The position numbers and the translations under genes are program-made. From a virus (lineage: Duplodnaviria; Caudoviricetes), in the IMG/VR virus record IMGVR_UViG_3300031998_000006, positions 151,311 through 215,310 of that record: a stretch of DNA of 64,000 nucleotides; one strand, given 5' to 3'. Positions within the stretch are counted from its first letter, which is position 1; every line of letters begins with the position of its first letter. Positions 296 through 53,399 of the stretch are shown here, in pieces. The notes beneath the pieces are model-generated. The model was not told the origin of the DNA, ran no database searches, and saw only the letters and a list, made by a program, of their open reading frames with translations.

Positions 296-1534
296 CTATC
301 CATGCACTAAAGATGCATGGGACTCCCCTAACTTACACGGACTGTTGTCCGTGATGGCTTCGGGCATTCTCGTTTCATTGCTTCCACGAGCATTTTTAAT
401 GACATCGGTAGGTTCCCTTCCTATTGTCCGTTTAACTCCTAGATACAGAATGTTCTGTGCGGCGTTCACATCCCTATCGTGCTGTGCATTGCATACGGGG
501 CAAACCCACTGCTTTATTCCTAACACAACTTGAGGGTTGATGTTACCGCAATGATGGCACGTCTTGGATGTGTTGTTTGCAGGTACTTTCATAAGGTTCG
601 TCTTGTAGGCTATGTATTGACGAAGCAATCCAAACCCCTGGTCGCCGATGGTCTTCCCGTGTTCTAACTCGGATGCCATTTTGTTCAAATTGACATCTTC
701 CACGAACACATACTGATACTTGTTGGCTAACTCACGGCTTACCTTGTGGAGCCAATCCTTGCGTTGGTTGACTACCTTTTCGTGTAGCCGTGCAACTTTT
801 AGTTTAGCTTTCTGGTAGCGGTGGGATTGGGTTTCCTTGCCTTTGACGAACCGGTTTGACTGAATCTGCTGATACTTTTCCAACTGCAATTCCTTGCGCT
901 TCAAAAATCTAGGACACTTGATTTTCGTGCCATTGCTCAAAGTAAGGAATGAATCGGAGTTGCAGTTCCAGTCTATGCCTACGGCTTTTCCATTCTGTAT
1001 CTTGTTCTGTTCTTCTTTAATATCTACACAAATCGCTACATACCATTTTCCGCTTGCGGACCGTTTAAAGGTAATAGTTTTCCACTTGCCCTTGCAGAAC
1101 TGTGAAGATGCACAGATGGGTATGTAGCCAAGCCTACGAGAAACAAATAATCCGTGAGAATTGATGTGGGCTACATTTCCTTGAATAGTGTACCTAAAGG
1201 AAGCCTTGTTGTTCTTCTTTCTCTTGAAGGTAGGGGGTTGCATAGGCTTTCCCTTGCGAATACCCTTGAGGGATGCAAAGAAATTCGTGTATGCTCCACG
1301 AACATCGCACCATACCTGTCCTAGGGGTATTGAATCCACATCCTTAATCCATTCAAGTGCTTCGGGCTTGAATTTTGCAAATGTGGGCTTGTAGCCCTCT
1401 ATGGGCATTTTGTGGTCTTTGTTCTTGTTCTCAACTACAAGGTTGTAATACAGACGGCAAAGACCAAGTGTTTTGTTGAAGATAGACACTTGTTCCTTGG
1501 TTGGATAGATTCTGTATTCGTATGCCTTGTTCAT
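296..1534 (-). CDS. tnpB: IS200/IS605-family RNA-guided endonuclease TnpB
   Basis: N-terminal HTH (KAYEYRIYPTKEQ), RuvC-I (AVGIDWN), RuvC-II (VFVEDVN), Zn ribbon (TSKTCHHCG...CPVC), RuvC-III (DRDVNAAQNI). Confidence 0.95.
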   Translation of the reverse strand: MNKAYEYRIYPTKEQVSIFNKTLGLCRLYYNLVVENKNKDHKMPIEGYKPTFAKFKPEALEWIKDVDSIPLGQVWCDVRGAYTNFFASLKGIRKGKPMQPPTFKRKKNNKASFRYTIQGNVAHINSHGLFVSRRLGYIPICASSQFCKGKWKTITFKRSASGKWYVAICVDIKEEQNKIQNGKAVGIDWNCNSDSFLTLSNGTKIKCPRFLKRKELQLEKYQQIQSNRFVKGKETQSHRYQKAKLKVARLHEKVVNQRKDWLHKVSRELANKYQYVFVEDVNLNKMASELEHGKTIGDQGFGLLRQYIAYKTNLMKVPANNTSKTCHHCGNINPQVVLGIKQWVCPVCNAQHDRDVNAAQNILYLGVKRTIGREPTDVIKNARGSNETRMPEAITDNSPCKLGESHASLVHG

Positions 1535-32171: not shown

Positions 32172-32645
32172 TTAGATGTTTGTGTCCTTGACAAGACGGA
32201 CGGAGAAGCCATGGTTGCCCCAAGCGGTAGCCATAGTGGTGCAATCATCGTTATGGAAGACATAATTGGTGCGGATTTCGTCCGCAAGACCGGTACTCCA
32301 AGTGTAGGAAGCATCGCCCACGAACCAATACCTACCTTCCATGAAATAGCCACACTTGCGGATGTCCATTGCCGGAATAAAGGTAGGATTGTCATTCAAG
32401 AAACGAACAAGTTCCTTGCTTTCCTCAACGGTGGGGAGTCGCCATCCATTCAGCTTCTTTGCAATTCGCTGTGCGGCATCAACGGTGTAGTAGTATTCGT
32501 CCGTCTTGGGATTGTAAGTGATACCTTCTCCGGCATCATTCTCACGGAGATTGTGAGCCATCCATTCGGTATTGCCCACTTTGCAAGTAGAAAAATCATT
32601 AGACATAATCGGCACTCCTTTATTGAACCTTGGCTTCATAGGCAT
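32172..32645 (-). CDS. FISUMP (Fib_succ_major) domain protein
   Basis: KVGNTEWMAHNL, YYY, GWRLPT, GFSVRLVKD. Confidence 0.8.
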   Translation of the reverse strand: MPMKPRFNKGVPIMSNDFSTCKVGNTEWMAHNLRENDAGEGITYNPKTDEYYYTVDAAQRIAKKLNGWRLPTVEESKELVRFLNDNPTFIPAMDIRKCGYFMEGRYWFVGDASYTWSTGLADEIRTNYVFHNDDCTTMATAWGNHGFSVRLVKDTNI

Positions 32646-32901
32646 TTGTCTTGATTTCAGTCAGCACATCAATGAGCCAACCCTTGCCGGAATACAGACG
32701 CTTGGCTTCTTCGTAATGGCGGTCCACGGATGGCATATTTACCTTGCTGACGGTCTTCTCGGTAACAAGAGCCATACGAAGACATTCGAGGGCGTGGAAG
32801 AACGAAGTGTCCTTCAACTTCTCGTCCGTGGTCTTGATTTCTTCTTGAATTTGCTTCAAAGCGGAGATAATCTGTTGCTTGGAGATTTGGGCTATTGCCA
32901 T
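32620..32901 (-). CDS. Hypothetical early protein
   Basis: Follows a promoter and the shared leader. Confidence 0.65.
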   Translation of the reverse strand: MAIAQISKQQIISALKQIQEEIKTTDEKLKDTSFFHALECLRMALVTEKTVSKVNMPSVDRHYEEAKRLYSGKGWLIDVLTEIKTNAYEAKVQ

Positions 32902-42212: not shown

Positions 42213-43526
42213 ATGAAAAACAATGAAGGTCTTACCAAACTCAATCGACCCGATAAAGAATACACCAAGCAAAAGCCGGGTTATCCAAAACCGGTTGACT
42301 ACGGCTACGAAAATGACATTACTCGCCAAATTTGGCAGTATGTCCGCAATCATAAAGAACTCGGAATTGATAGTGGCTGGGACACCGGTTCGGGTCTTGT
42401 GATAATGAATGCAGATACGGATGACCACACTAAATATGCCCGTATCGAGTACAACCACGATACAGACAGCATTGATGTTACTACACTAACAGACAGAACT
42501 ACAAAATCGTTCCCGTTCGAAGATGCCACCATAGAAGAAATCCTTCTTACCGTTATCGACTCCATCGAAAACAAAACTACAAAGAAGGAATCTTACTACT
42601 CCCAGGGAAACCACGACGGACGATGGTTCCGTCCGGCAAAGGCACAGGAATCCTTCCCTAGCCAAGCCGCCTACCTTTCCTACAAGAAGGGCTACAACGA
42701 TGGAAGCCTTGGCATCTACGAAGCCACGAACGACCCAAAGTTTGACGCGGAAATCAAGGATTTGAAGTCCAAGAAGGATATGCCCGAACTCGTGAGTTCG
42801 CTGAACAACCTTACCACGGAACAGCTTGTCCTTCTTGAAAAGGGCTTTGGCGATGGCGAACTCGCTACGGATATGGACACGGAAGAAATGGACATCAAGG
42901 CGAAGGACTTGCATCCCACCCAGAACGAAATCGACGTGGGAAAATCCCTCTCCTACCAAATCAGCGGAAAGAACCCAGACCAGATTAAGCAGATTCTTGA
43001 TGGCGGTCCGGTCACTGTGAACCTTCCGCTCGTTGTATATGACTACAGGGGTACTTACTACATCGTGGACGGACACCACAGATGGTCGCAAGTTTTTATG
43101 CTGAACCCGAACTGCACTATCAAGAGCATCGTGTTCAAGAACTCCGCTGGCGATACGGAACAAGACCCAGCAGATATGCTACGTGATTTTCAGGGTGCGA
43201 TTGCCGTTGCCAACGATGGTGATGTTCCGTCTAGTAAGGTGCAGGGCGGTATGAACATATTCGACTGGTCTTCCGACCAACTCCGCAAGTACCTTGACGA
43301 TGAAAGCACCGGCATTCAGGACGGTATGATTAGTGCATATCGTGATTTCTATAACTCCGAAATCGACAAGAGCGATATTGAGAATGCCATCATCGGCAAT
43401 GCCGGTCTTATGCTCAAGTCCAACAAGCCCATCAAGAATGCCCCTAGCCGTAGCGTGATGCCCCAAACCGACACTGGCAACAATGCCGGTTTGAAGACCG
43501 CAATGGCTGGTATGACGGACATTTAA
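42213..43526 (+). CDS. Multidomain protein with ParB/Sulfiredoxin-like domain
   Basis: LHPTQNEI, YIVDGHHRW. Confidence 0.75.
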   Translation: MKNNEGLTKLNRPDKEYTKQKPGYPKPVDYGYENDITRQIWQYVRNHKELGIDSGWDTGSGLVIMNADTDDHTKYARIEYNHDTDSIDVTTLTDRTTKSFPFEDATIEEILLTVIDSIENKTTKKESYYSQGNHDGRWFRPAKAQESFPSQAAYLSYKKGYNDGSLGIYEATNDPKFDAEIKDLKSKKDMPELVSSLNNLTTEQLVLLEKGFGDGELATDMDTEEMDIKAKDLHPTQNEIDVGKSLSYQISGKNPDQIKQILDGGPVTVNLPLVVYDYRGTYYIVDGHHRWSQVFMLNPNCTIKSIVFKNSAGDTEQDPADMLRDFQGAIAVANDGDVPSSKVQGGMNIFDWSSDQLRKYLDDESTGIQDGMISAYRDFYNSEIDKSDIENAIIGNAGLMLKSNKPIKNAPSRSVMPQTDTGNNAGLKTAMAGMTDI

Positions 43527-43930
43527 TGGAGAGTAAAACTCTTCGCCTTTGGTAGTAGGCTTACAACTACCCTACCGATAGATAGTCGGGAAGTTAAGTC
43601 TGTACAAGTATTTGTCGCACAAATACTTGTGGCGAACTAGGATGATGAGTCCTTATCGTCTGACACACGAGGTTACAGAATAAGCAATTATTCAGTGCGT
43701 GTGGTTGATGCAGAAAGCGATAACTATTAGTTTCATAGAAACTGGTAGAAATCGTGTATCGGAAGAGTATTTCAAGAACCAGTATTAGTAGGGTTTTGTC
43801 AACGCGGTGCAATACCATACTAATACTGGTTCTTGGAAAACAACCTAATAAACACGGGTAACTTGAGCAACCTTGAGTTCGCCCGATTGATGATTTACCT
43901 GTACTACAACCGCTGCGACCAGACCTAACG
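43527..43930 (+). ncRNA. Candidate large structured non-coding RNA
   Basis: About 400 nt intergenic region with roughly nine hairpins, including perfect 12-bp and 18-bp stems. Confidence 0.55.
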
Positions 43931-43935
43931 GAGAA

Positions 43936-46089
43936 ATGGATATGCCACACAAAGCCTTTCTACACAAGAAGTCTTTGCTCGACCAGTTTAGGGATGACCA
44001 CAAGCATACTGGGGTCATCCAGTCTATGCGTGCTGAACACACTTGGAACAATCCGCTGACCCGAAGGAAGAGAACCAAGAAGCTCAACGGATGGATTAAG
44101 TCCTTTGCCGGTAAAGACCATATCCGCAAGCTCTCCCGATTCAATGCGGTGCAAGCCCACAGACACGAGAGCGTTGGTGCTGACGGGGTTAAAGTCAAGC
44201 AGTATGTTGACATCTTCGAGTTGCCGGATGGCAAAATCATCAAGGCATTGAACAAGTGCATCCGCTGCCCCCGAAAGTTTGCGGCAACGCAATACATCAC
44301 GGGATGGGTGGAGAACTACCCCGAAGAGAACCTTCCGGGAAAGTACACGGTGGTCTATAAAAACGCCAAGGGCATTGAAGACAATTTCTTTACGGATGAC
44401 ATCCAGGACTTGCCGAACTACCAGATTAGCGGTCCGGTTCCGTCCGAAAAATCAGTTGTAGGAGAATCCACTATGAAGACAAGCGAGAAGGAATACAAGC
44501 ACGTTTCCCCGTATATGATTGACACGGCTTTGCCTATTCTCAAGAACGAATACGGATGGAAGCTGGCTACGGAAGACGACGTGGCAGAGTTCATCGAGGA
44601 CTACTGGGATGCATTCGTCAAGGCTTACAACCGCTCCGAAAAGGGTGGCGACGGTCCTATCCGTGATGGCATTGAAGCGGCATTCAGCGCCGAAGATGCG
44701 AAGGTCACTAGGGCTGAATACGGAAGCGAATTTGAATCCAAGAAGAACGAAGTTCATGTATTGCCGAACCCCACAATAATTTATAAAGGCCCAATCGAAG
44801 ACGCTAAAAAGGCTTGCCACTATGTTAGCAAGATTCTTGCTGATAAAGGGCTAGGATGGGGCAGAGTATCTTGGCAAGCACCCAAGGATGGGGAGTTCCA
44901 CTATGGACACCCGGAAAAGGATGTGTACACCGTTACTCTCCGTGGCTCTAATGACTTAATCAAAGATTCCTTTGCAGTTTATAAAGATGTTTTTGGAAAC
45001 GACTTCTGGAATAATTGCGATGCATCCCCAGATGGATGGGTAAATCCCCAAGATATAGCAATTCGTGATGTTGCTACGGAATCCAAGAATGCAGATGAAA
45101 AACTTGGCTACGAAAAGGGTCACAAGAACTCCAAGGGCGAGGATGCCCCGTGGGTCATACGTTCCCACGAGGACAACCGCATCCTTGCATCGTTCGCAAC
45201 CGAAGACGAAGCCAAGAAGCACTTGCAGAGGATGAAACAGTATTCCAAGGGCGAATCCAAGAAGTCCGAAGGATTGAGCAACGAAAAGGTCAAGGATGCC
45301 GTCAAGTTCGCGGCAACAGAAGCCGGTCTTGAAGACTACCTAAAGGTTGATTCCGATGGTGCTATGTCCGTGACCGTTTCCCTCCCCATCAACTCGGAAA
45401 AGTTGATGTGGAGGGAAACGGTCCGCTGGGTCATAGACAGCAACGAAGGTACGATTGAAGAATACCTCGACACGGAAAAGAACCTAGTAAGGGATTTCAC
45501 GGACGACCAATCGCTCGTGTCCATGCTGACCCTCCTTTTCCAGACCGCCCGTATGTCCTTGCGCCAATGGCTTCCGAAGAAATCCGAAGCACTCTTCAAC
45601 AAGGAAGAACTTGAAGAACCCGTAAACAGCTACATCTCCGATGTGTTCGCAGACCTCGTGGTTTCCTTCCACTGGGGCGAGGACGGTGCCAAGAAGTTCC
45701 TCGACAAGTACAACGATGTCATCCTCGCCAACTACGCCGAAGGGGAGATGTCCGCATACGAAACCGCAAGATACATCGACCGCAAGGAAAACCCCTATCC
45801 TCTTGAATCCAAGAAGAAACAGGAGTCCAAGAAGAACGAAGGTCATCTCGACTTCGTGGACACCATCGTTGTTCCGAAGTGGCTCTGGGATGCTTTCTAC
45901 TTTGCGGACGAATATGGCGAAACCTTGAACGATGAAGAGGAAGAAATCCTTGCTGATTTCAAGGCGAAGTATGCCGATGCCAAGTACCACCTCGAAACCC
46001 CAGAAGAGGAAGCCGATTTCCGTAGCCATAACGATTTCGACAACTATGGCGGTCCGTGCTACGAAATCAATGTGTACGAATGGAAATAA
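43936..46089 (+). CDS. Multidomain putative internal head polyprotein
   Basis: Repeated ESKKxE linkers between unrelated domains. Confidence 0.65.
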   Translation: MDMPHKAFLHKKSLLDQFRDDHKHTGVIQSMRAEHTWNNPLTRRKRTKKLNGWIKSFAGKDHIRKLSRFNAVQAHRHESVGADGVKVKQYVDIFELPDGKIIKALNKCIRCPRKFAATQYITGWVENYPEENLPGKYTVVYKNAKGIEDNFFTDDIQDLPNYQISGPVPSEKSVVGESTMKTSEKEYKHVSPYMIDTALPILKNEYGWKLATEDDVAEFIEDYWDAFVKAYNRSEKGGDGPIRDGIEAAFSAEDAKVTRAEYGSEFESKKNEVHVLPNPTIIYKGPIEDAKKACHYVSKILADKGLGWGRVSWQAPKDGEFHYGHPEKDVYTVTLRGSNDLIKDSFAVYKDVFGNDFWNNCDASPDGWVNPQDIAIRDVATESKNADEKLGYEKGHKNSKGEDAPWVIRSHEDNRILASFATEDEAKKHLQRMKQYSKGESKKSEGLSNEKVKDAVKFAATEAGLEDYLKVDSDGAMSVTVSLPINSEKLMWRETVRWVIDSNEGTIEEYLDTEKNLVRDFTDDQSLVSMLTLLFQTARMSLRQWLPKKSEALFNKEELEEPVNSYISDVFADLVVSFHWGEDGAKKFLDKYNDVILANYAEGEMSAYETARYIDRKENPYPLESKKKQESKKNEGHLDFVDTIVVPKWLWDAFYFADEYGETLNDEEEEILADFKAKYADAKYHLETPEEEADFRSHNDFDNYGGPCYEINVYEWK

Positions 46090-47860: not shown

Positions 47861-47863
47861 CTA

Positions 47864-47890
47864 AAAGCCCCGGAAATCGGGGTTTTTTTA
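47864..47890 (+). terminator. Intrinsic terminator
   Basis: AAAGCCCCG-GAAAT-CGGGGTTTTTTT. Confidence 0.75.
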
Positions 47891-47897
47891 ATACCCC

Positions 47898-48390
47898 AAA
47901 ACGTTACCTTTTTCTTTTCGTATATATAGGAACTATGCTATGCGTTCTGAAAAAGGTAACGTTTTTATCCTAGGTATAAAGCTACTCCTGATGCTCACTT
48001 CGTTCGCATCTCGGGGCATACTCGTTCGCTTCGCTCACAAGTATGCCTGCAACTCCCTTGCGGGAGTTGCGTACAAGAAGGATTAGGATATACCACTCCT
48101 TAAAGAAGCCCGATAGGGCTTGCAAGGCGAACTAGGGAAAGCGAAGGTGCGAAGCACCGAGCGAATCCCGTATGTGAGTCCTTGCAACAAAGAAGGAGCG
48201 AGTATAGCGCATTTCGTTCCTAAAAGTCCAAGGTTCGTGAAGCGTGAGCGGCGATGCGAGGGGCGAAGCCCCGAACAGAGCGCGAATGCTTCGGAATAGG
48301 GAAGAGTAGGGGGTTTGGGTGGAGAGAAGCGGTAGTCAGTGTGACTTTTTTGTTTCGATATAACCGGACCGAAAAAGACAAAGGTAACGG
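47898..48390. other. Palindrome-rich non-coding region, candidate origin or packaging site
   Basis: 17-bp inverted repeat and many short hairpins, several with GCGAAGC. Confidence 0.45.
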
Positions 48391-48490: not shown

Positions 48491-51478
48491 ATGGCTGATG
48501 ACAATACCCTTTCGGGGATGAGTACCAAGGACTTGCTCAAGGCTGCCGCCATTGCGGAGGGGTATGAGTCCGTTCCAGTTGACATAGAAACTTTCATTGA
48601 AGACCCCAAGTACATCGGGTCCATCTATGGGGAGGGCAGAGTCTATCCCTATTGGAGAAATAGGCTCAAGCAGATTTATCCGAATCCGCTATATTCTCCG
48701 TACCTAGAGGTGTGCCTTTCGGGAGATACCGAAGTTGACCTTCTCGACGGCACTACGAAGACGATGGGTCAAATCTGCAAGGAGTATCCGGGTGGAGATT
48801 TCTGGGTGCTTGGATTCAATGTGAACACGAAGGAGTGGGAGCCGTGCAAGGCTCATTCCCCGGCTATTACGGGTTTCCGTAAGGTGTATAAGGTCACGCT
48901 TGACAACGGCAAGTGGTTCAAGGCTACCGCTGAACATCCGGTTCTCGGCAAGGACAACCGATGGTATAGGGTGGATAGCCTAAAGGTGGGGCAGTCCTTG
49001 ATGCCCTACAACTTGACCTATGATGAGAAGGGCTATGCCTATGTCTGGGACAACAAGTCGCTACAGAAGGTAAAGCGCCGTAGGCTAGTTCAAAATTTCA
49101 AGAATCCCATCCCCAGCGGATGGCACGTCCACCACAAGAACCAGAACAAGGCTGACGATAGGCCTTGCAACTTGATAGCTTTGTCCCAGAATACTCATCT
49201 CAAGAAGCACCACGACTTGTGGCAGGAAGGTTTGAAAGACCCTAACAAGCGTCCGGGTCAAATTCAGCGGCTTGTAGATGGGTCGCAGGCATACAAGGCA
49301 CAGAATCCCGAAGCCTATAGGGATAGCCGGTCTAGGGGCGGTGTGGCTTCCTGGAAGTCCAAATCTCCCGAAACTATTGCCCGAATGCGTGCTGGTCAAA
49401 GGGCTTGGGTCAATTCCGAAGCTGGCAAGTTGCAGTCTGCCGAAAAGTTCCGGAAGTATAATGCCACCCACAAGGAAGAGTTGCAAGCTCGCGCCCACAA
49501 TGCCGTGAGGGTTAGATGGACGGACGAGAATCAGCGGTTGGGTGCATCTGTGAAGATGGCTTCTAGAAATCACGACCCGGAGTTTCAGCGGAAGACTCAA
49601 TTCGCAAAGATATTGAAGTATTTGAATGTAGCCCTATTGTCCAATCCGAATTTTAAGAGTACGGAATTGACCTACAAGCGGAGGGCTACGGTTGCTCGTT
49701 ATTTTGATTGCGTCGTGAACGGACGGATAGACTATGCATTGCTGGAGAGCAAGTGGGATTCTATTGTTGAAAGGGCAATAAATTACAATCACCGCATCGT
49801 TTCTATTGAAGAGTTGCCCCCTGAACCTGTTTACAATTTTACTGTGGACAAGTTACACAACTATGTTTTGTCGTGCGGAGTTGTTACATCAAATTGCATT
49901 ACTGGTTGCATTGGTGCCGGGAAAAGTACCGTATCAATTATCGGGTTGCTCTATGACCTCTATAGGGTCACTCTGCTCAAGGACCCCCACAAGAAATACA
50001 AGCTCATCCCCACAACCCCAATCGTGATTACCCTCATTACCGCCACGATGGACTTGGCTGGTGCGGTGCTTGCCGACCAGTTGATTGATGTCATCGGGGC
50101 ATCTCCATATTTCCGCTCCAAGTTGTTGCCCGGAAAGGGCGACAAGATTGACGAAGAGATGTTCCCGCACCACGTTGGAATCTCCTACGGTTCCCGAATG
50201 CGTCACTCCTTGGGCAAGGCTGTGATTGGAGCAATCATCGACGAAGCTAACTTCCAGAACGCCGTGGCTGACCAAGCCGTGCAGAACTACAACTCCATCC
50301 GTCGAAGAATGTTCTCCCGTTTTATGACGAGGGGTGGTGAAGTACCTTGTCGAATGTGGGTGGTGTCATCCCGAAACGAAAGCACCTCTTTCCTTGAAAG
50401 TCACATCGACGCGGAGCGAAACAATCCGCAAGTTGCCATCTTCGAACCGGCAATCTGGGAGGTGCAGGCCCACAAGGGCATCTATAGCGGAAAGACTTTC
50501 CCCGTGTTTATTGGTTCGGATGTGGAGCAGCCGAAGGTGCTTACATCGGATAGCGAACTAGATGAGTATGCCGGTAGGATTATCCACGTTCCGGTGGAGT
50601 ATAGGAAGGACTTTGAGAACAATCTGCCGGGTGCTTTGCAGGACTTGGCTGGTGTGGCTACCCGAAATGGGGTCAACCTCATCTACAATGTTGAAGCACT
50701 GGACAAGTCTATGTGCCTTGACAACTGTATGACGAAGGACGAACTCCAGCTATCAATGACGGACCACGACCAGATTAGTGATTTTTATAAGGGAAACTTG
50801 CCAAAGGGAAAGTATTACATACACTTGGACGGTGGCTTGAGGAACGACCGCTTCGGGTTCGCAATGAGTAGGGTAACGGAGAACATCAGCGTGTCTACCG
50901 TTTCCGCTATCGACGGAGGGCAGGTCAGTAAGATTAGCCCGGCGGTTGAAACTCCGCTCGTGTTTGGTATCAAGGCTCGTCCGGGTAGTGAAGTGCCATT
51001 CTGGAAGGTGCGAGTGTTTCTGGCTTACTTGCGTAGTAGCGGGGTCAACATCGCACAGATTACTTGTGACGGCTACCAGAGTGCCGATATGATGCAGTTG
51101 CTCACGAAGATGGGATTCAACGTCAAGTATGCTTCCGTGGATAAGACGAAGGACCCGTATCTCAAGTTGAGCAGCAACATCATCCTTGGGCTGATTAAGA
51201 TGCCGAAGTCCAAGATTTTGAGGATAGAATTGATGAACTTGCAGAACCTACCGAAAAAAATAGACCATCCAGCAACTGTTGTTGTGGATGGCGAACAAGT
51301 GGCGGGTGGTAAGGATATTGCGGATGCGGTGGCGGCAAGTTCCTATGAAGCTATAAGTAATTCTATTACATTGGGAGCGGCATCACTACTTAACTTGCAG
51401 AAATCAGTGCCTACACAGATGAGTATGCTTCAACGACAGGAATATGTGATGCAGAATTTCTTTAAAATTAAAAGATAG
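48491..51478 (+). CDS. terL: Terminase large subunit with intein
   Basis: Walker A TGCIGAGKST, Walker B AIIDEAN, nuclease motifs IHLD, DGYQS and KDIADAV. Confidence 0.9.
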   Translation: MADDNTLSGMSTKDLLKAAAIAEGYESVPVDIETFIEDPKYIGSIYGEGRVYPYWRNRLKQIYPNPLYSPYLEVCLSGDTEVDLLDGTTKTMGQICKEYPGGDFWVLGFNVNTKEWEPCKAHSPAITGFRKVYKVTLDNGKWFKATAEHPVLGKDNRWYRVDSLKVGQSLMPYNLTYDEKGYAYVWDNKSLQKVKRRRLVQNFKNPIPSGWHVHHKNQNKADDRPCNLIALSQNTHLKKHHDLWQEGLKDPNKRPGQIQRLVDGSQAYKAQNPEAYRDSRSRGGVASWKSKSPETIARMRAGQRAWVNSEAGKLQSAEKFRKYNATHKEELQARAHNAVRVRWTDENQRLGASVKMASRNHDPEFQRKTQFAKILKYLNVALLSNPNFKSTELTYKRRATVARYFDCVVNGRIDYALLESKWDSIVERAINYNHRIVSIEELPPEPVYNFTVDKLHNYVLSCGVVTSNCITGCIGAGKSTVSIIGLLYDLYRVTLLKDPHKKYKLIPTTPIVITLITATMDLAGAVLADQLIDVIGASPYFRSKLLPGKGDKIDEEMFPHHVGISYGSRMRHSLGKAVIGAIIDEANFQNAVADQAVQNYNSIRRRMFSRFMTRGGEVPCRMWVVSSRNESTSFLESHIDAERNNPQVAIFEPAIWEVQAHKGIYSGKTFPVFIGSDVEQPKVLTSDSELDEYAGRIIHVPVEYRKDFENNLPGALQDLAGVATRNGVNLIYNVEALDKSMCLDNCMTKDELQLSMTDHDQISDFYKGNLPKGKYYIHLDGGLRNDRFGFAMSRVTENISVSTVSAIDGGQVSKISPAVETPLVFGIKARPGSEVPFWKVRVFLAYLRSSGVNIAQITCDGYQSADMMQLLTKMGFNVKYASVDKTKDPYLKLSSNIILGLIKMPKSKILRIELMNLQNLPKKIDHPATVVVDGEQVAGGKDIADAVAASSYEAISNSITLGAASLLNLQKSVPTQMSMLQRQEYVMQNFFKIKR
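48713..49894 (+). mobile_element. Intein with HNH endonuclease (394 aa)
   Basis: Starts CLSGDT, has TAEHP and HVHHKNQNKADDRPCNL, ends VYNFTV..HNY...VVTSN|C. Confidence 0.9.
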
Positions 51479-51481
51479 TTC

Positions 51482-51625
51482 TTGCCTACTGTTTAGAGAT
51501 TATTTATATTTGTAGTATAAAGTTTAATGAATTAGTCGCATTCTTCATTAAACTACAGAAATCATTTTATGACGGCTCGTTTGGAATTGAATGCGACAGT
51601 AAGTTCCGAACGAGCCATTTTTGTT
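51482..51625 (+). promoter_or_regulatory. Promoter plus two-hairpin kissing-loop leader
   Basis: TTGCCT-17-TATATT; complementary loops GTCGCATTC and GAATGCGAC. Confidence 0.6.
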
Positions 51626-51632
51626 TATATCT

Positions 51633-53399
51633 ATGAGTAAACACTGTTGGACATTGAAGGATAGATATGAGTCACAGTTCGCTGTGTCCTTCTATCCGCT
51701 TATGTTGTCCAACACGAAGAAAGCCGAAATCCTACATAGGGCAGAAGAGATACGGACGATTAGAAACGAAATATCGGAAATCTTCTTTTCGGATATGCTT
51801 GGATTCCAGGATATGTCCAAGTTTGAAGCCTTTAATTATTTCAATCCGTTATTTAGTAAAAGACTGCGTAGCCACTACTTGAAAAAAGCCATCGAGGATG
51901 TGTGGAAATCTTATCAACTTAGATTTGATGCTATTCGTAATAAGATAGAGTTCGTTAAAGTAGAAGAACTTGTTCCATCATTCTACAAGATAAATTCGCA
52001 TGGACATAAAAATGGAGAGTTGAGGTCAATAGAACGGCATACAAAGAAGACTGAACTCACAAAGGTTCTTACTTGGCTTGCTAGATATGGTAAGGATGAT
52101 TCCGTGCAATGGCTTGAATCTGTAATGCCTAGTGTAGTTGAAACAAAGAAAAAATTTTATAAAACTATATTAGTAAAGATTCAAAAATTTGGGTTTGCTA
52201 GATTGATGCAATTAGCATTATCTCGTAGAGAGTCTGTTTATAAATTGTATCAAAAACGTGGTAGGATTAATTTTGAATCGCTAACTTTTAGTGGTAGGAG
52301 TAGATTGACCTCTCCAATAGTATGTGCTAGACGAAATGAAAATGGAAAGTTTGATTACTTTATAGAGATTTCTTGGGATTGGTTTAATAAAGGGTATCGT
52401 GGGGGGAGTGACCATTCTTTATGTATTCCATTTAAGTATAATAAGGCATATCATAGGTCTTTAAAAAGATATTGTAATGGGGATTGTACACCTTACACTG
52501 TTGTGATTCGTGGAAATGATATACATATAGTTCTTACTCGTGTGGGTTATAGATATAAGAATATAACTACGATACTCCCGGATAATACTATCGGTATTGA
52601 TATAAATTCAAAGCATAATATGTTGGCATTGAGTAGTGGAGCGTTTATATCTAATGACGATGATTTGATTGAAGATTTAAAAACCGAGTTACTAAAAATA
52701 GATAAGAAACACAAGAGTTATAATGATAAATTTAATAAAAATGAAGAACATAGTGCATTTAAGTGGTCTAGGAAAGATAAGGCTCGTATATTTGCTATTT
52801 CTTTAAAACTTAATGAATCTAATAAGAGAACTATTGCGAATGTATGTAAGAATTATGGTTTAGGCGGTGTAGAAAATCTAGTTCTAGAGAACTTAACTGG
52901 ATTTAAAGGAAGCAAACTCTATGCTGATGATTCAAAAGGCTTTAATTTAGGGCGGTTACATTTAAGGACTAGACTCTCGTCATTAAAGGATGAGTTTATC
53001 CATATAGCCCCCAAGTACGGGTTATCTGTGTCATTGGTTCAGCCTGAATATACATCCAAGATGTGTGGGCATTGCGGATGCATAGATGACCGTAATCGCC
53101 AAACCCAAGAAGTTTTTAAATGCGTTGAATGTGGGCATACTGAAAATGCGGACATTCATAGTGCAAAGAATATAAAATTCCGTCTTACCTCGACCGTGTT
53201 AAGAGGGTACTTGCTTGAAAAGGCAAGGGATAACGGATATAGGAACTTTCAGCCAAAGAGCTTGTCTAGGTGGCAAGTAAGGGAGTTCCTAGAAAAATGT
53301 CATCATAGTGGATTGTTTGAGCAGTCTATAGAAAATTACACAAAGCCTGCGATTAGTAGAATTTGTGTGATTTTAGGTGGTGCCGGTCTATTTTCTTAA
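51633..53399 (+). CDS. Long TnpB/Cas12f-like RuvC nuclease (588 aa)
   Basis: IGIDIN, VLENL, PEYTSKMCGHCG...CVECG...NADIHSAKNI; low GC. Confidence 0.85.
   Translation: MSKHCWTLKDRYESQFAVSFYPLMLSNTKKAEILHRAEEIRTIRNEISEIFFSDMLGFQDMSKFEAFNYFNPLFSKRLRSHYLKKAIEDVWKSYQLRFDAIRNKIEFVKVEELVPSFYKINSHGHKNGELRSIERHTKKTELTKVLTWLARYGKDDSVQWLESVMPSVVETKKKFYKTILVKIQKFGFARLMQLALSRRESVYKLYQKRGRINFESLTFSGRSRLTSPIVCARRNENGKFDYFIEISWDWFNKGYRGGSDHSLCIPFKYNKAYHRSLKRYCNGDCTPYTVVIRGNDIHIVLTRVGYRYKNITTILPDNTIGIDINSKHNMLALSSGAFISNDDDLIEDLKTELLKIDKKHKSYNDKFNKNEEHSAFKWSRKDKARIFAISLKLNESNKRTIANVCKNYGLGGVENLVLENLTGFKGSKLYADDSKGFNLGRLHLRTRLSSLKDEFIHIAPKYGLSVSLVQPEYTSKMCGHCGCIDDRNRQTQEVFKCVECGHTENADIHSAKNIKFRLTSTVLRGYLLEKARDNGYRNFQPKSLSRWQVREFLEKCHHSGLFEQSIENYTKPAISRICVILGGAGLFS

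What the first reader, a model, noticed from the sequence alone, without database searches (positions are those of the whole stretch)
43527..43930. About 400 nt densely structured intergenic RNA candidate
Seen: back-to-back stems, including ACAAGTATTTGT/ACAAATACTTGT (43604-43630), CAAGAACCAGTATTAGTA/TACTAATACTGGTTCTTG (43773-43835), GGATGATGAG/CTTATCGTCT, CTATTAGTTTC/GAAACTGGTAG and CGGGTAACTTGAG/TTGAGTTCGCCCG. Several use G-U pairs, favouring a plus-strand RNA. The 5' GTAGTA can pair with the 3' TACTAC, and the 3' ACCGC and TGCGAC complement GCGGT and GTCGCA at hairpin tips (possible pseudoknots). I do not recognise tRNA, tmRNA, RNase P or group I/II intron hallmarks.
Basis: seen in the sequence. 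Interest (0 to 1): 0.7.

Follow-up and report, generated by a model that had tools for sequence, protein, structure and literature searches.

The report
Orphan TnpB guide-RNA scaffold in phage
Most of this folded stretch is the scaffold of a transposon guide RNA (the omega RNA that TnpB nucleases use) that has lost its nuclease gene and sits alone in a rumen jumbo phage, so it is a real structured RNA of a known kind in an unusual, detached state.

Summary
The dense structure is real: fold z = -7.5 on the plus strand. It is not one 400-nt RNA but three parts.

(1) 43528-43762 is a conserved structured RNA. It has two other distinct protein-less relatives. Among these three copies, 16 of 77 pairs change on both sides and 97.8% of cells are paired.

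A covariance model built from them hits the 3' end of bona fide tnpB genes in 9 of 12 loci of one TnpB clade. All 12 aligned copies stop being alike at the same base, right after CGG, which is the transposon right end. So part 1 is a TnpB omega-RNA scaffold. In the window it has no tnpB gene, no left end and no promoter of its own.

(2) 43763-43851 is flank. It sits where a guide would lie and holds a 21-bp hairpin.

(3) 43852-43928 is the relic 3' end of a 126-aa phage gene that the insert displaced.

Rfam 15 holds no matching family.

Verdict: a genuine RNA element and a new member of a known kind. Whether this copy still loads a TnpB in trans is open.

The parts
43528..43762 (+). Orphan TnpB omega-RNA (right-end RNA) scaffold. 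The helices are 43528-43534/43538-43544, 43551-43558/43564-43571, 43575-43579/43585-43589, 43604-43615/43619-43630, 43631-43635/43656-43660, 43639-43643/43649-43653, 43664-43669/43698-43703, 43674-43683/43688-43697, 43705-43711/43756-43762 and 43717-43734/43738-43755.
   Evidence: It is 79-83% identical to L037 and L038. 16 of 77 pairs have changes on both sides. Model R1 hits tnpB 3' ends. All 12 aligned copies end at CGG. Copies in other contexts stop aligning at 43762 (X21 record 2 and X7 record 13).
43763..43782 (+). The position where the guide of an omega RNA would lie, meaning the first ~20 nt of flank after the right end. From 43770 it is part of the 5' arm of the next hairpin.
   Evidence: This is inferred from the family's architecture. 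Similarity among all 12 copies ends at 43762. No second match to the first 16 nt with 2 or fewer mismatches exists in G000 or in any locus held (which searched from 43764).
43770..43838 (+). A 21-bp hairpin with arms 43770-43790 and 43818-43838. It is lineage-specific flank, not part of the conserved scaffold, and no U-run follows it.
   Evidence: It is absent from L037 and L038. It is present with changes in X9 record 15 and X21 record 3. The terminator scan did not list it.
43852..43928 (+). Relic 3' end (last ~25 codons and the stop TAA at 43926-43928) of a 124-126-aa phage gene (the L007 2617-2991 / P0126 family). It holds the hairpin 43855-43867/43872-43885.
   Evidence: tblastn gives 72% identity over 25 aa to the L007 ORF. 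The last 21 residues are identical to P0126. A close relative (X3 record 5) has 312 other letters in place of 43533-43851 and then matches from 43852 onwards.
42213..43526 (+). Upstream ParB-like gene. Its end is conserved in relatives. The RNA starts 2 nt after its stop codon, so the RNA can be transcribed only by read-through.
   Evidence: phrog_1033, E 1.9e-5. Relatives' proteins align up to 43523. No promoter-like site was found in 43400-43600.
43942..46089 (+). Downstream conserved phage gene of unknown function. The listed ORF starts at 43936, but the conserved start is the ATG at 43942, with GGAG at 43930-43933.
   Evidence: 261 homologs, many on contigs of about 200 kb. M3 and P4 are invariant.

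Best explanation
The region is composite. Its core, 43528-43762, is the scaffold of a TnpB omega RNA. That RNA is normally encoded across the 3' end of a tnpB gene and the right end of an IS200/IS605-family element. It binds TnpB and presents the first ~16-20 nt of flanking sequence as a DNA-targeting guide.

Here the scaffold derives from a protein-less deletion derivative of such an element (left end plus right end, PATE-like, as still seen whole in L038). That derivative has further lost its left end, 5' leader and promoter. It landed between a ParB-like gene and a conserved 717-aa gene, replacing the first ~100 codons of a small phage gene.

Shown: the conserved structure with covariation; homology to tnpB-attached RNAs; a shared right-end boundary; absence of tnpB, left end and promoter in the window; and the relic of the displaced gene.

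Inferred: the RNA is made by read-through from the ParB-like gene. In this phage it is most likely (about 55%) a partnerless remnant, still intact in all helices. There is about a 20-25% chance that it still loads a TnpB supplied in trans and guides it to DNA matching 43763-43782. The confidence given (0.85) is for the identity as an orphan omega-RNA scaffold, not for either functional state.
For: Structure:
- z -7.54.
- Three distinct orphan copies (window, L037 = L039 = L040, L038) are 79-83% identical.
- 97.8% of 228 cells are paired and 16 of 77 pairs changed on both sides. 0 of 500 shuffles reach this, and slid controls give 0-2 such pairs.
- With two tnpB-attached copies added, 44 of 84 pairs changed on both sides and 93.1% are paired. 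That alignment is fitted to the model.

Identity:
- Model R1 hits L042 1501-1725 (35.1 bits, E 2e-10) and L043 1501-1763 (24.3 bits, E 4e-7).
- Both hits overlap the last ~65-78 codons of ORFs carrying HTH_OrfB_IS605, OrfB_IS605 and Cas12f1-like_TNB.
- 7 of 10 further loci of that TnpB clade also hit, at the same place.
- All 12 aligned copies end in CGG and diverge right after it.
- Helix 43664-43669/43698-43703 covaries between orphans and attached copies.

Orphan state:
- No plus-strand ORF of 40 aa or more in the region.
- No TnpB similarity near it.
- L038 keeps a left end homologous to that of the G003 elements: 62.7% over 134 nt, E 1e-10.
- L037 has a TTGACA-17-TATATT promoter (11 of 12) and a terminator.
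- The window has neither promoter nor terminator.

Setting:
- The phage holds 13 TnpB-family ORFs and one Y1 TnpA.
- The displaced gene is documented.
- In passages I read, Meers et al. (preprint 10.1101/2023.03.14.532601) state that PATE elements often encode omega RNAs that must be acted on in trans by TnpB.
Against: - The tnpB-attached homologs score only 23-35 bits, against 286-292 for the orphans the model was built from.
- E-values from the shortened calibration are rough.
- 2 of the 10 further loci (L059, L060) and the truncated L067 gave no hit at E <= 1.
- The 5' third of the model aligns poorly to the attached copies (low posterior). In L038 that part seems to come from the element's left end and 5' leader.
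- No TnpB closer than 33% identity to the G003 clade exists in G000.
- The RNA at the 3' end of the closest G000 TnpB gives only an 8-bit hit that lacks the central helices. A cognate protein for this copy is therefore not identified.
- The would-be guide is partly buried in a 21-bp hairpin.
- Transcription was not shown. The only RNA-library evidence is assembled contigs of related copies, and these may be DNA carry-over.
- The window copy has no broken pair, which fits a remnant only if it is young.
Confidence: 0.85

Rival explanations
1. An active, exapted guide-only gene. The orphan scaffold is kept because it programmes one of the many TnpB nucleases (of this phage, a co-infecting phage or the host) against DNA matching its 3' flank. 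The outcome would be homing of the cassette into alleles that lack it, or attack on competitors.
For: The orphans form a lineage of their own. There are three fetched copies plus at least four further variants in runs (X3 records 7 and 8, X7 record 13, X21 record 2). They diverged 17-21% while keeping the pairs by compensation. L037 has a near-consensus promoter and a terminator, and L038 has a hairpin terminator right after the flank. The window copy has no broken helix. G000 has 13 TnpB ORFs. The locus is polymorphic among phages whose flanks are 99% identical.
Against: No cognate TnpB was found in G000, nor within the 4-13 kb held around L037, L038 and L039. The window copy lacks a promoter. 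The guide position is base-paired in a hairpin in the window, and partly so in L037 and L038. No target was found among the held sequences. The L038 promoter did not pass the scan.
Confidence: 0.22
2. A cis-acting mRNA element. The folded block and the 21-bp hairpin serve as a processing or stability site (for example an RNase III site) or as a translational regulator between the ParB-like gene and the 717-aa gene.
For: The block lies inside an apparent operon with no promoter or terminator of its own. A 21-bp perfect stem is long enough for RNase III, which is established knowledge and was not tested here. Both the window and L037 have a same-strand gene downstream.
Against: The same scaffold sits at unrelated loci. 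In L039, a relative of G000, it follows a uvsX-like gene. In L038 it faces a convergent gene. Ten of 11 IMG/VR relatives have their 717-aa gene directly preceded by an ORF with a gap of about 10-20 nt, and the eleventh, L010, has a 79-aa ORF there. The gene therefore does not need such a leader.
Confidence: 0.07
3. A DNA-level element read by proteins, such as a parS-like centromere next to the ParB-like gene, a replication origin, or cruciforms.
For: It lies next to a ParB-like gene. G+C dips to 0.40. There are several perfect palindromes, and both strands fold equally well by z-score.
Against: The palindromes differ in sequence, so there is no repeated binding motif. The stems change sequence while keeping pairing, and G-U pairs are conserved on one strand only. 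The block is homologous to transcribed omega RNAs. Relatives with the same ParB-like gene lack it.
Confidence: 0.02
4. A decayed protein gene, meaning the whole region is a pseudogene of the 126-aa gene found at this place in relatives.
For: The length is similar: 402 nt from the ParB stop to the TAA at 43928, against 375-381 nt for the gene. An RBS-like GGAGA at the 5' end and the last 25 codons at the 3' end are kept.
Against: No similarity to the gene exists upstream of 43851 at protein or DNA level. 43537-43762 is instead 79-83% identical to non-coding RNA genes elsewhere. All three frames are closed.
Confidence: 0.02

Closest known systems
TnpB omega RNA (also called reRNA) of IS200/IS605-family elements (OMEGA systems). 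The founding work by Karvelis et al. 2021 and Altae-Tran et al. 2021 is recalled, not read. Abstracts of Nety et al. 2023 (PMC10278001) and of PMC10097598 were seen in listings.
   Same: Homologs of the window RNA overlap the 3' end of tnpB and run ~27 nt past its stop to the element's right end. The scaffold is conserved with covariation. Sequence becomes unrelated exactly at the end of the scaffold, where the guide begins.
   Different: In the window there is no tnpB upstream, no left end, and stops in all frames. The orphan subgroup has larger peripheral helices (43604-43630 and 43631-43660) than the attached copies. This clade is not in Rfam 15.
PATE-like protein-less IS200/IS605 derivatives that encode omega RNAs (Meers et al., preprint 10.1101/2023.03.14.532601; passages read).
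   Same: These are protein-less elements with the omega RNA kept, which would need TnpB (and TnpA) supplied in trans. L038 has both a left end and the right-end scaffold.
   Different: The window copy and L037 lack the left end, so they are not complete PATEs. They lie in phage genomes. L037 has a strong promoter that does not derive from the left end.
Guide RNAs of TldR, the nuclease-dead TnpB-derived repressors (preprint 10.1101/2023.11.30.569447, abstract in listing; preprint 10.64898/2026.09.22.753285, passages read).
   Same: They are TnpB-family scaffolds used outside transposition, including in prophages.
   Different: TldR guides are encoded next to their protein gene. No such gene is next to the window RNA, and no target was found.
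Large ornate phage-associated RNAs ROOL and GOLLD (abstract of 10.1101/2024.12.08.627333 in listing).
   Same: They are rumen or phage-borne structured RNAs with GNRA loops and their own promoter and terminator in some copies.
   Different: No Rfam match to ROOL or GOLLD. The window RNA is much smaller and is homologous to tnpB 3' ends.

Membership tests
TnpB omega RNA (IS200/IS605 right-end RNA) | Sequence and structure homology to RNAs encoded at tnpB 3' ends | tested here: met
   R1 hits 9 of 12 loci of one TnpB clade at the tnpB 3' end, at 23-35 bits. The shared core motifs and helices are visible in the 12-row alignment.
TnpB omega RNA (IS200/IS605 right-end RNA) | Lies across the 3' end of a tnpB ORF | tested here: not met
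   The window has no tnpB upstream, because the ParB-like gene ends 2 nt before the RNA. The feature is met only in the homologs L042, L043, L057, L058, L061-L063, L066 and L068. Hence 'orphan'.
TnpB omega RNA (IS200/IS605 right-end RNA) | The scaffold ends at the transposon right end, and the sequence after it (the guide) is unrelated between copies | tested here: met
   All 12 copies end in CGG and diverge after it. Run contigs of other copies stop aligning at 43762.
TnpB omega RNA (IS200/IS605 right-end RNA) | Conserved secondary structure supported by compensatory changes | tested here: met
   16 of 77 pairs (3 sequences) and 44 of 84 pairs (5 sequences, model-fitted). Slid controls give 0-2 and 7-12 pairs.
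TnpB omega RNA (IS200/IS605 right-end RNA) | Binds TnpB and guides TAM-dependent DNA cleavage | not testable with these tools
   No cognate TnpB was identified in G000. The closest is 33% identical to the G003 clade, and its own 3' RNA gives only 8 bits.
PATE-like protein-less IS200/IS605 element | Left end and right end both present with no protein gene between them | tested here: not met
   The window and L037 lack the left-end motif. L038 meets the feature: its left end is 62.7% identical over 134 nt to that of L042.
Any Rfam 15 family | Score at or above the family's gathering threshold | tested here: not met
   There were 0 matches at gathering over the whole window. Only sub-threshold chance-level hits appeared at E <= 10 or E <= 1 in the window region, L037, L038 and six tnpB loci. 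Nothing matched the RNA there; the only matches in the six tnpB loci lay elsewhere: three tRNA genes that pass the threshold and three sub-threshold ones (a fourth tRNA-like, PyrR, SurA).

The most novel reading that the evidence does not exclude
Phages of this rumen jumbo-phage group keep stand-alone omega-RNA genes, some promoter-driven and detached from any nuclease gene, as trans-acting guides. These guides would re-aim their many TnpB nucleases at rival alleles or competing phages. That would be a guide-only locus, a natural step between transposon-bound TnpB and CRISPR-like separation of guide and effector.
Probability: 0.12. Interest if true: 0.8.

Novelty: new member of a known kind. 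Interest (0 to 1): 0.42.

Why it matters
It shows that a strongly folded 'intergenic RNA' with no Rfam match can be traced, through a model built from only three copies, to the guide RNA of a transposon nuclease. It also adds an omega-RNA clade that Rfam 15 lacks.

The detached copies kept every helix through 17-21% divergence. Some have their own promoter and terminator. They sit at different places in related phages, one of which carries 13 tnpB genes.

If any of these copies works in trans, they would be natural examples of guide and nuclease encoded apart, which bears on how CRISPR-type systems arose from TnpB. If not, the locus is an ordinary transposon remnant that displaced a small phage gene.

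Tried and rejected
Searches that gave no match:
- Rfam at gathering and at loose E-values: nothing relevant.
- ARAGORN: no tRNA or tmRNA.
- INPHARED phages, blastn: no match.
- Own-genome DNA search: only self and palindrome matches.
- An 18-mer from the long hairpin in IMG/VR: 5 hits, none extending beyond 19-22 nt, so chance.
- Close relatives by the 717-aa protein in IMG/VR: none.
- By the ParB-like protein: 4 loci, all with ORFs in the slot.
- Pattern scans of GTDB genomes with two conserved motifs: 0 hits each.
- R1 over 10 related virus records: hits in 1 only, G003.
- R1 with filters off on the 3' regions of 12 G000 TnpB genes: only an 8-bit hit lacking the central helices.
- The search of earlier findings was not open.

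Readings dropped:
- Stop-codon recoding. The frame that continues the ParB-like ORF holds three TAG and one TAA, by my own reading, so no single reassignment opens it.
- An intron in the small gene. No 5' exon is present.
- A MITE with copies in this genome. There is a single copy.
- A K-turn around helix 43664-43703. This fits the orphans and G003a/b but not L061-L063.
- A long 5'/3' closing helix (43592-43601 with 43920-43929) from the MFE. Its 3' strand is in the relic gene end and is absent from relatives.

Run evidence:
- An RNA-library run (X21) holds contigs of related copies at depth 13.9, against 5.3 for the neighbouring gene contig. Contig depth and possible DNA carry-over make this no evidence of transcription.
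- Parts of the region without cover in X7, X9 or X21 are not interpreted.

Full report
**Setting.** The window is bases 151311-215310 of a 215,310-bp IMG/VR virus record, G000. Runs that hold it are bovine gut metagenomes. The finding lies between a ParB-like gene (42213-43526; phrog_1033, E 1.9e-5) and a conserved 717-aa gene of unknown function. That gene has 261 homologs, many on contigs of about 200 kb, and its conserved start is the ATG at 43942.

**Observation.**
- The plus strand of 43527-43935 has no ORF of 40 aa or more.
- It folds to -144.9 kcal/mol, z -7.54. The minus strand gives -127.1 kcal/mol, z -7.63.
- Among 24 ORF-free gaps of G000 folded the same way, only two reach a similar z.
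- Rfam 15 gives nothing at gathering over the whole window, and only chance-level hits at E <= 10.
- ARAGORN finds no tRNA or tmRNA.

**The slot in relatives.**
- Eleven IMG/VR loci hold a full-length homolog of the 717-aa gene. In all of them a protein gene of 79-358 aa abuts it, and none has a 400-nt gap.
- The last 25 codons of one such gene (L007 2617-2991) match the window at 43851-43925 with 72% identity, in frame with the TAA at 43926-43928.
- A 126-aa member of that family, P0126, has its last 21 residues identical to the window's translation.
- Contigs of public runs were laid on the window. One phage has flanks differing at 3 of 333 and 5 of 347 bases and carries 312 other letters in place of 43533-43851. 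This length fits the intact 126-aa gene. That is an inference, because I did not see the letters.
- Another contig carries 220 other letters in place of 43533-43760 and then matches from 43761 on.
- So 43852-43928 is a gene relic, and 43533-43851 is an insert that displaced the gene's first ~100 codons.

**The conserved RNA.**
- Short contigs in three runs match 43544/43546/43651 to 43721/43762 in other sequence contexts. Their paired changes keep the 12-bp hairpin and the 43678-43693 hairpin.
- Pattern scans with conserved stretches fetched L037 (the same phage as L039 and L040, 99.6% identical) and L038. They are 79% and 83% identical to 43537/43544-43762 and unrelated beyond it.
- On the three sequences, the RNAalifold structure minus its outermost 5' closing helix (7 pairs) has 77 pairs. 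Of 228 cells, 97.8% are paired, and 16 pairs changed on both sides. 0 of 500 shuffles reach this. Partners slid by 1-3 columns give 35-41% paired and 0-2 such pairs.
- Several G-U pairs are invariant and G-C/G-U exchanges occur, so the plus strand is the RNA strand.
- The tip of helix 43674-43697 is a GNRA loop in all three (GCAA, GAAA, GCGA).
- L037 has TTGACA-17-TATATT (11 of 12, with TG) 7 nt upstream of the region and an intrinsic terminator about 190 nt after the conserved block.
- L038 has a TATATT box, with a poor -35 that the scan did not list, and an 18-bp hairpin terminator just after the block.
- The window copy has neither promoter nor terminator.
- L039 belongs to a relative of G000: its DNA polymerase is 83% identical and it is syntenic with G000 131-148 kb. 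There the RNA follows a uvsX-like gene instead.
- G000 has one copy only.

**What it is.**
- A covariance model of the three (R1) was run over ten related virus records. It hit one record, G003, twice.
- Both hits (35.1 and 24.3 bits) overlap the last 65-78 codons of ORFs of 477 and 497 aa and run about 27 nt past their stops. These ORFs carry HTH_OrfB_IS605, OrfB_IS605 and Cas12f1-like_TNB and are 76% identical to each other.
- A scan for that TnpB clade gave 12 loci. Two of them are the G003 loci already hit (L064 = L042, L065 = L043). Of the 10 others, 7 have an R1 hit at the same place. L059, L060 and the cut L067 do not.
- In the 12-row alignment, all copies share the core around helix 43664-43703, which covaries. 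Its 5'/3' strands read CACACG/CGUGUG in the orphans and GAUAUG/CAUAUC, GACUUG/CAGGUC or GACCGG/CCGGUU in attached copies.
- All 12 copies end in CGG, after which they are unrelated. The two G003 elements also stop being alike there.
- This is the architecture of a TnpB omega RNA: a scaffold across the tnpB 3' end up to the right end, followed by a guide taken from the flank. That description is established knowledge of IS200/IS605 OMEGA systems; the founding papers are recalled, not read.
- Rfam has no family for the attached copies either.

**Orphan state.**
- The window, L037 and L038 have no tnpB. All frames are closed in the window, and tblastn with the G003 TnpBs finds nothing near them.
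- L038 keeps, upstream of the scaffold, a left end homologous to that of the G003 elements (62.7% over 134 nt, E 1e-10). It is therefore a protein-less left-end-plus-right-end element.
- Meers et al. describe such PATE-like elements as often encoding omega RNAs that need TnpB in trans (passages read).
- L037 lacks that left end. The window copy also lacks the short 5' leader hairpin shared by L037 and L038.
- The first helix in the window (43528-43534/43538-43544) is built partly from the RBS-like flank that relatives share up to 43532.

**Does this copy work?**
- G000 holds 13 TnpB-family ORFs and one Y1 TnpA.
- The closest TnpB to the G003 clade is only 33% identical. The RNA at its 3' end gives an 8-bit hit that lacks the central helices.
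- The would-be guide (43763-43782) runs into the 5' arm of a 21-bp hairpin and has no second match in anything held.
- On the other side, the window copy has every helix intact. The orphan lineage kept its pairs through 17-21% divergence, which argues that orphans as a class are under selection for the RNA fold, most simply for binding a TnpB supplied in trans.
- I put the identity (orphan omega-RNA scaffold) at about 0.85. Within it, I put a partnerless remnant at ~55% and an RNA still usable in trans at ~20-25%.

GTAGTA/TACTAC, ACCGC/GCGGT and TGCGAC/GTCGCA all use the relic gene end, or hairpin tips that differ in L037 and L038. They are not supported.

**Limits.**
- Only three orphan sequences could be fetched. 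The other variants are known only from tables of differences.
- E-values of R1 are rough.
- The 5' third of the model aligns weakly to the attached copies.
- Transcription was not shown.
- My literature searches were listings, plus passages of two preprints. In them I saw no description of promoter-bearing orphan omega-RNA genes in phages. The searches were not exhaustive, and supplements were closed.

Noticed in passing
G000 whole record; in the window 296-1534 (-) and 51621-53399 (+): The 215-kb phage carries 13 ORFs with the Cas12f1-like TNB domain (TnpB family, open frames of 395-598 aa) and one Y1 TnpA at G000 32426-32785. That is an unusually high load of IS200/IS605-type genes for a phage.
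   Followed up: partly
window 47861-48253 (to 48490): This is a second ORF-free, strongly folded stretch (z about -9 for 393 nt, z -6.2 for 630 nt) just upstream of the terminase-like gene. It begins with an intrinsic terminator and a 17-bp hairpin. No Rfam match.
   Followed up: partly
window 48491-51478 (+): A 995-aa ORF with weak terminase large-subunit similarity. It is interrupted by an intein with an HNH endonuclease.
   Followed up: no
G000 92566-92773 (outside the window): A 208-nt ORF-free gap with fold z about -18, the most extreme of the 24 gaps folded in G000.
   Followed up: no
window 43936-46089 and homologs P0001-P0120: The 717-aa protein family has three invariant blocks (residues 3-78, 388-440 and 635-713) separated by highly variable, length-variable segments. 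It has no Pfam or PHROG match.
   Followed up: no
L038 2166-2852: An ORF near the L038 copy of the RNA carries a Fib_succ_major domain (E 2.2e-12), a hint that the hosts may be Fibrobacter or Bacteroidota. G000 has weak matches to it at 183.7-186.0 kb.
   Followed up: no
L039 2596-4491: A clamp-loader-like ORF of 631 aa in which residues ~104-425 match other families (ribonucleotide reductase and PhoH-like profiles). This suggests an inserted element such as an intein.
   Followed up: no
L043 2884-3117: Two or three tRNA genes lie about 1.1 kb downstream of the second G003 TnpB element.
   Followed up: no
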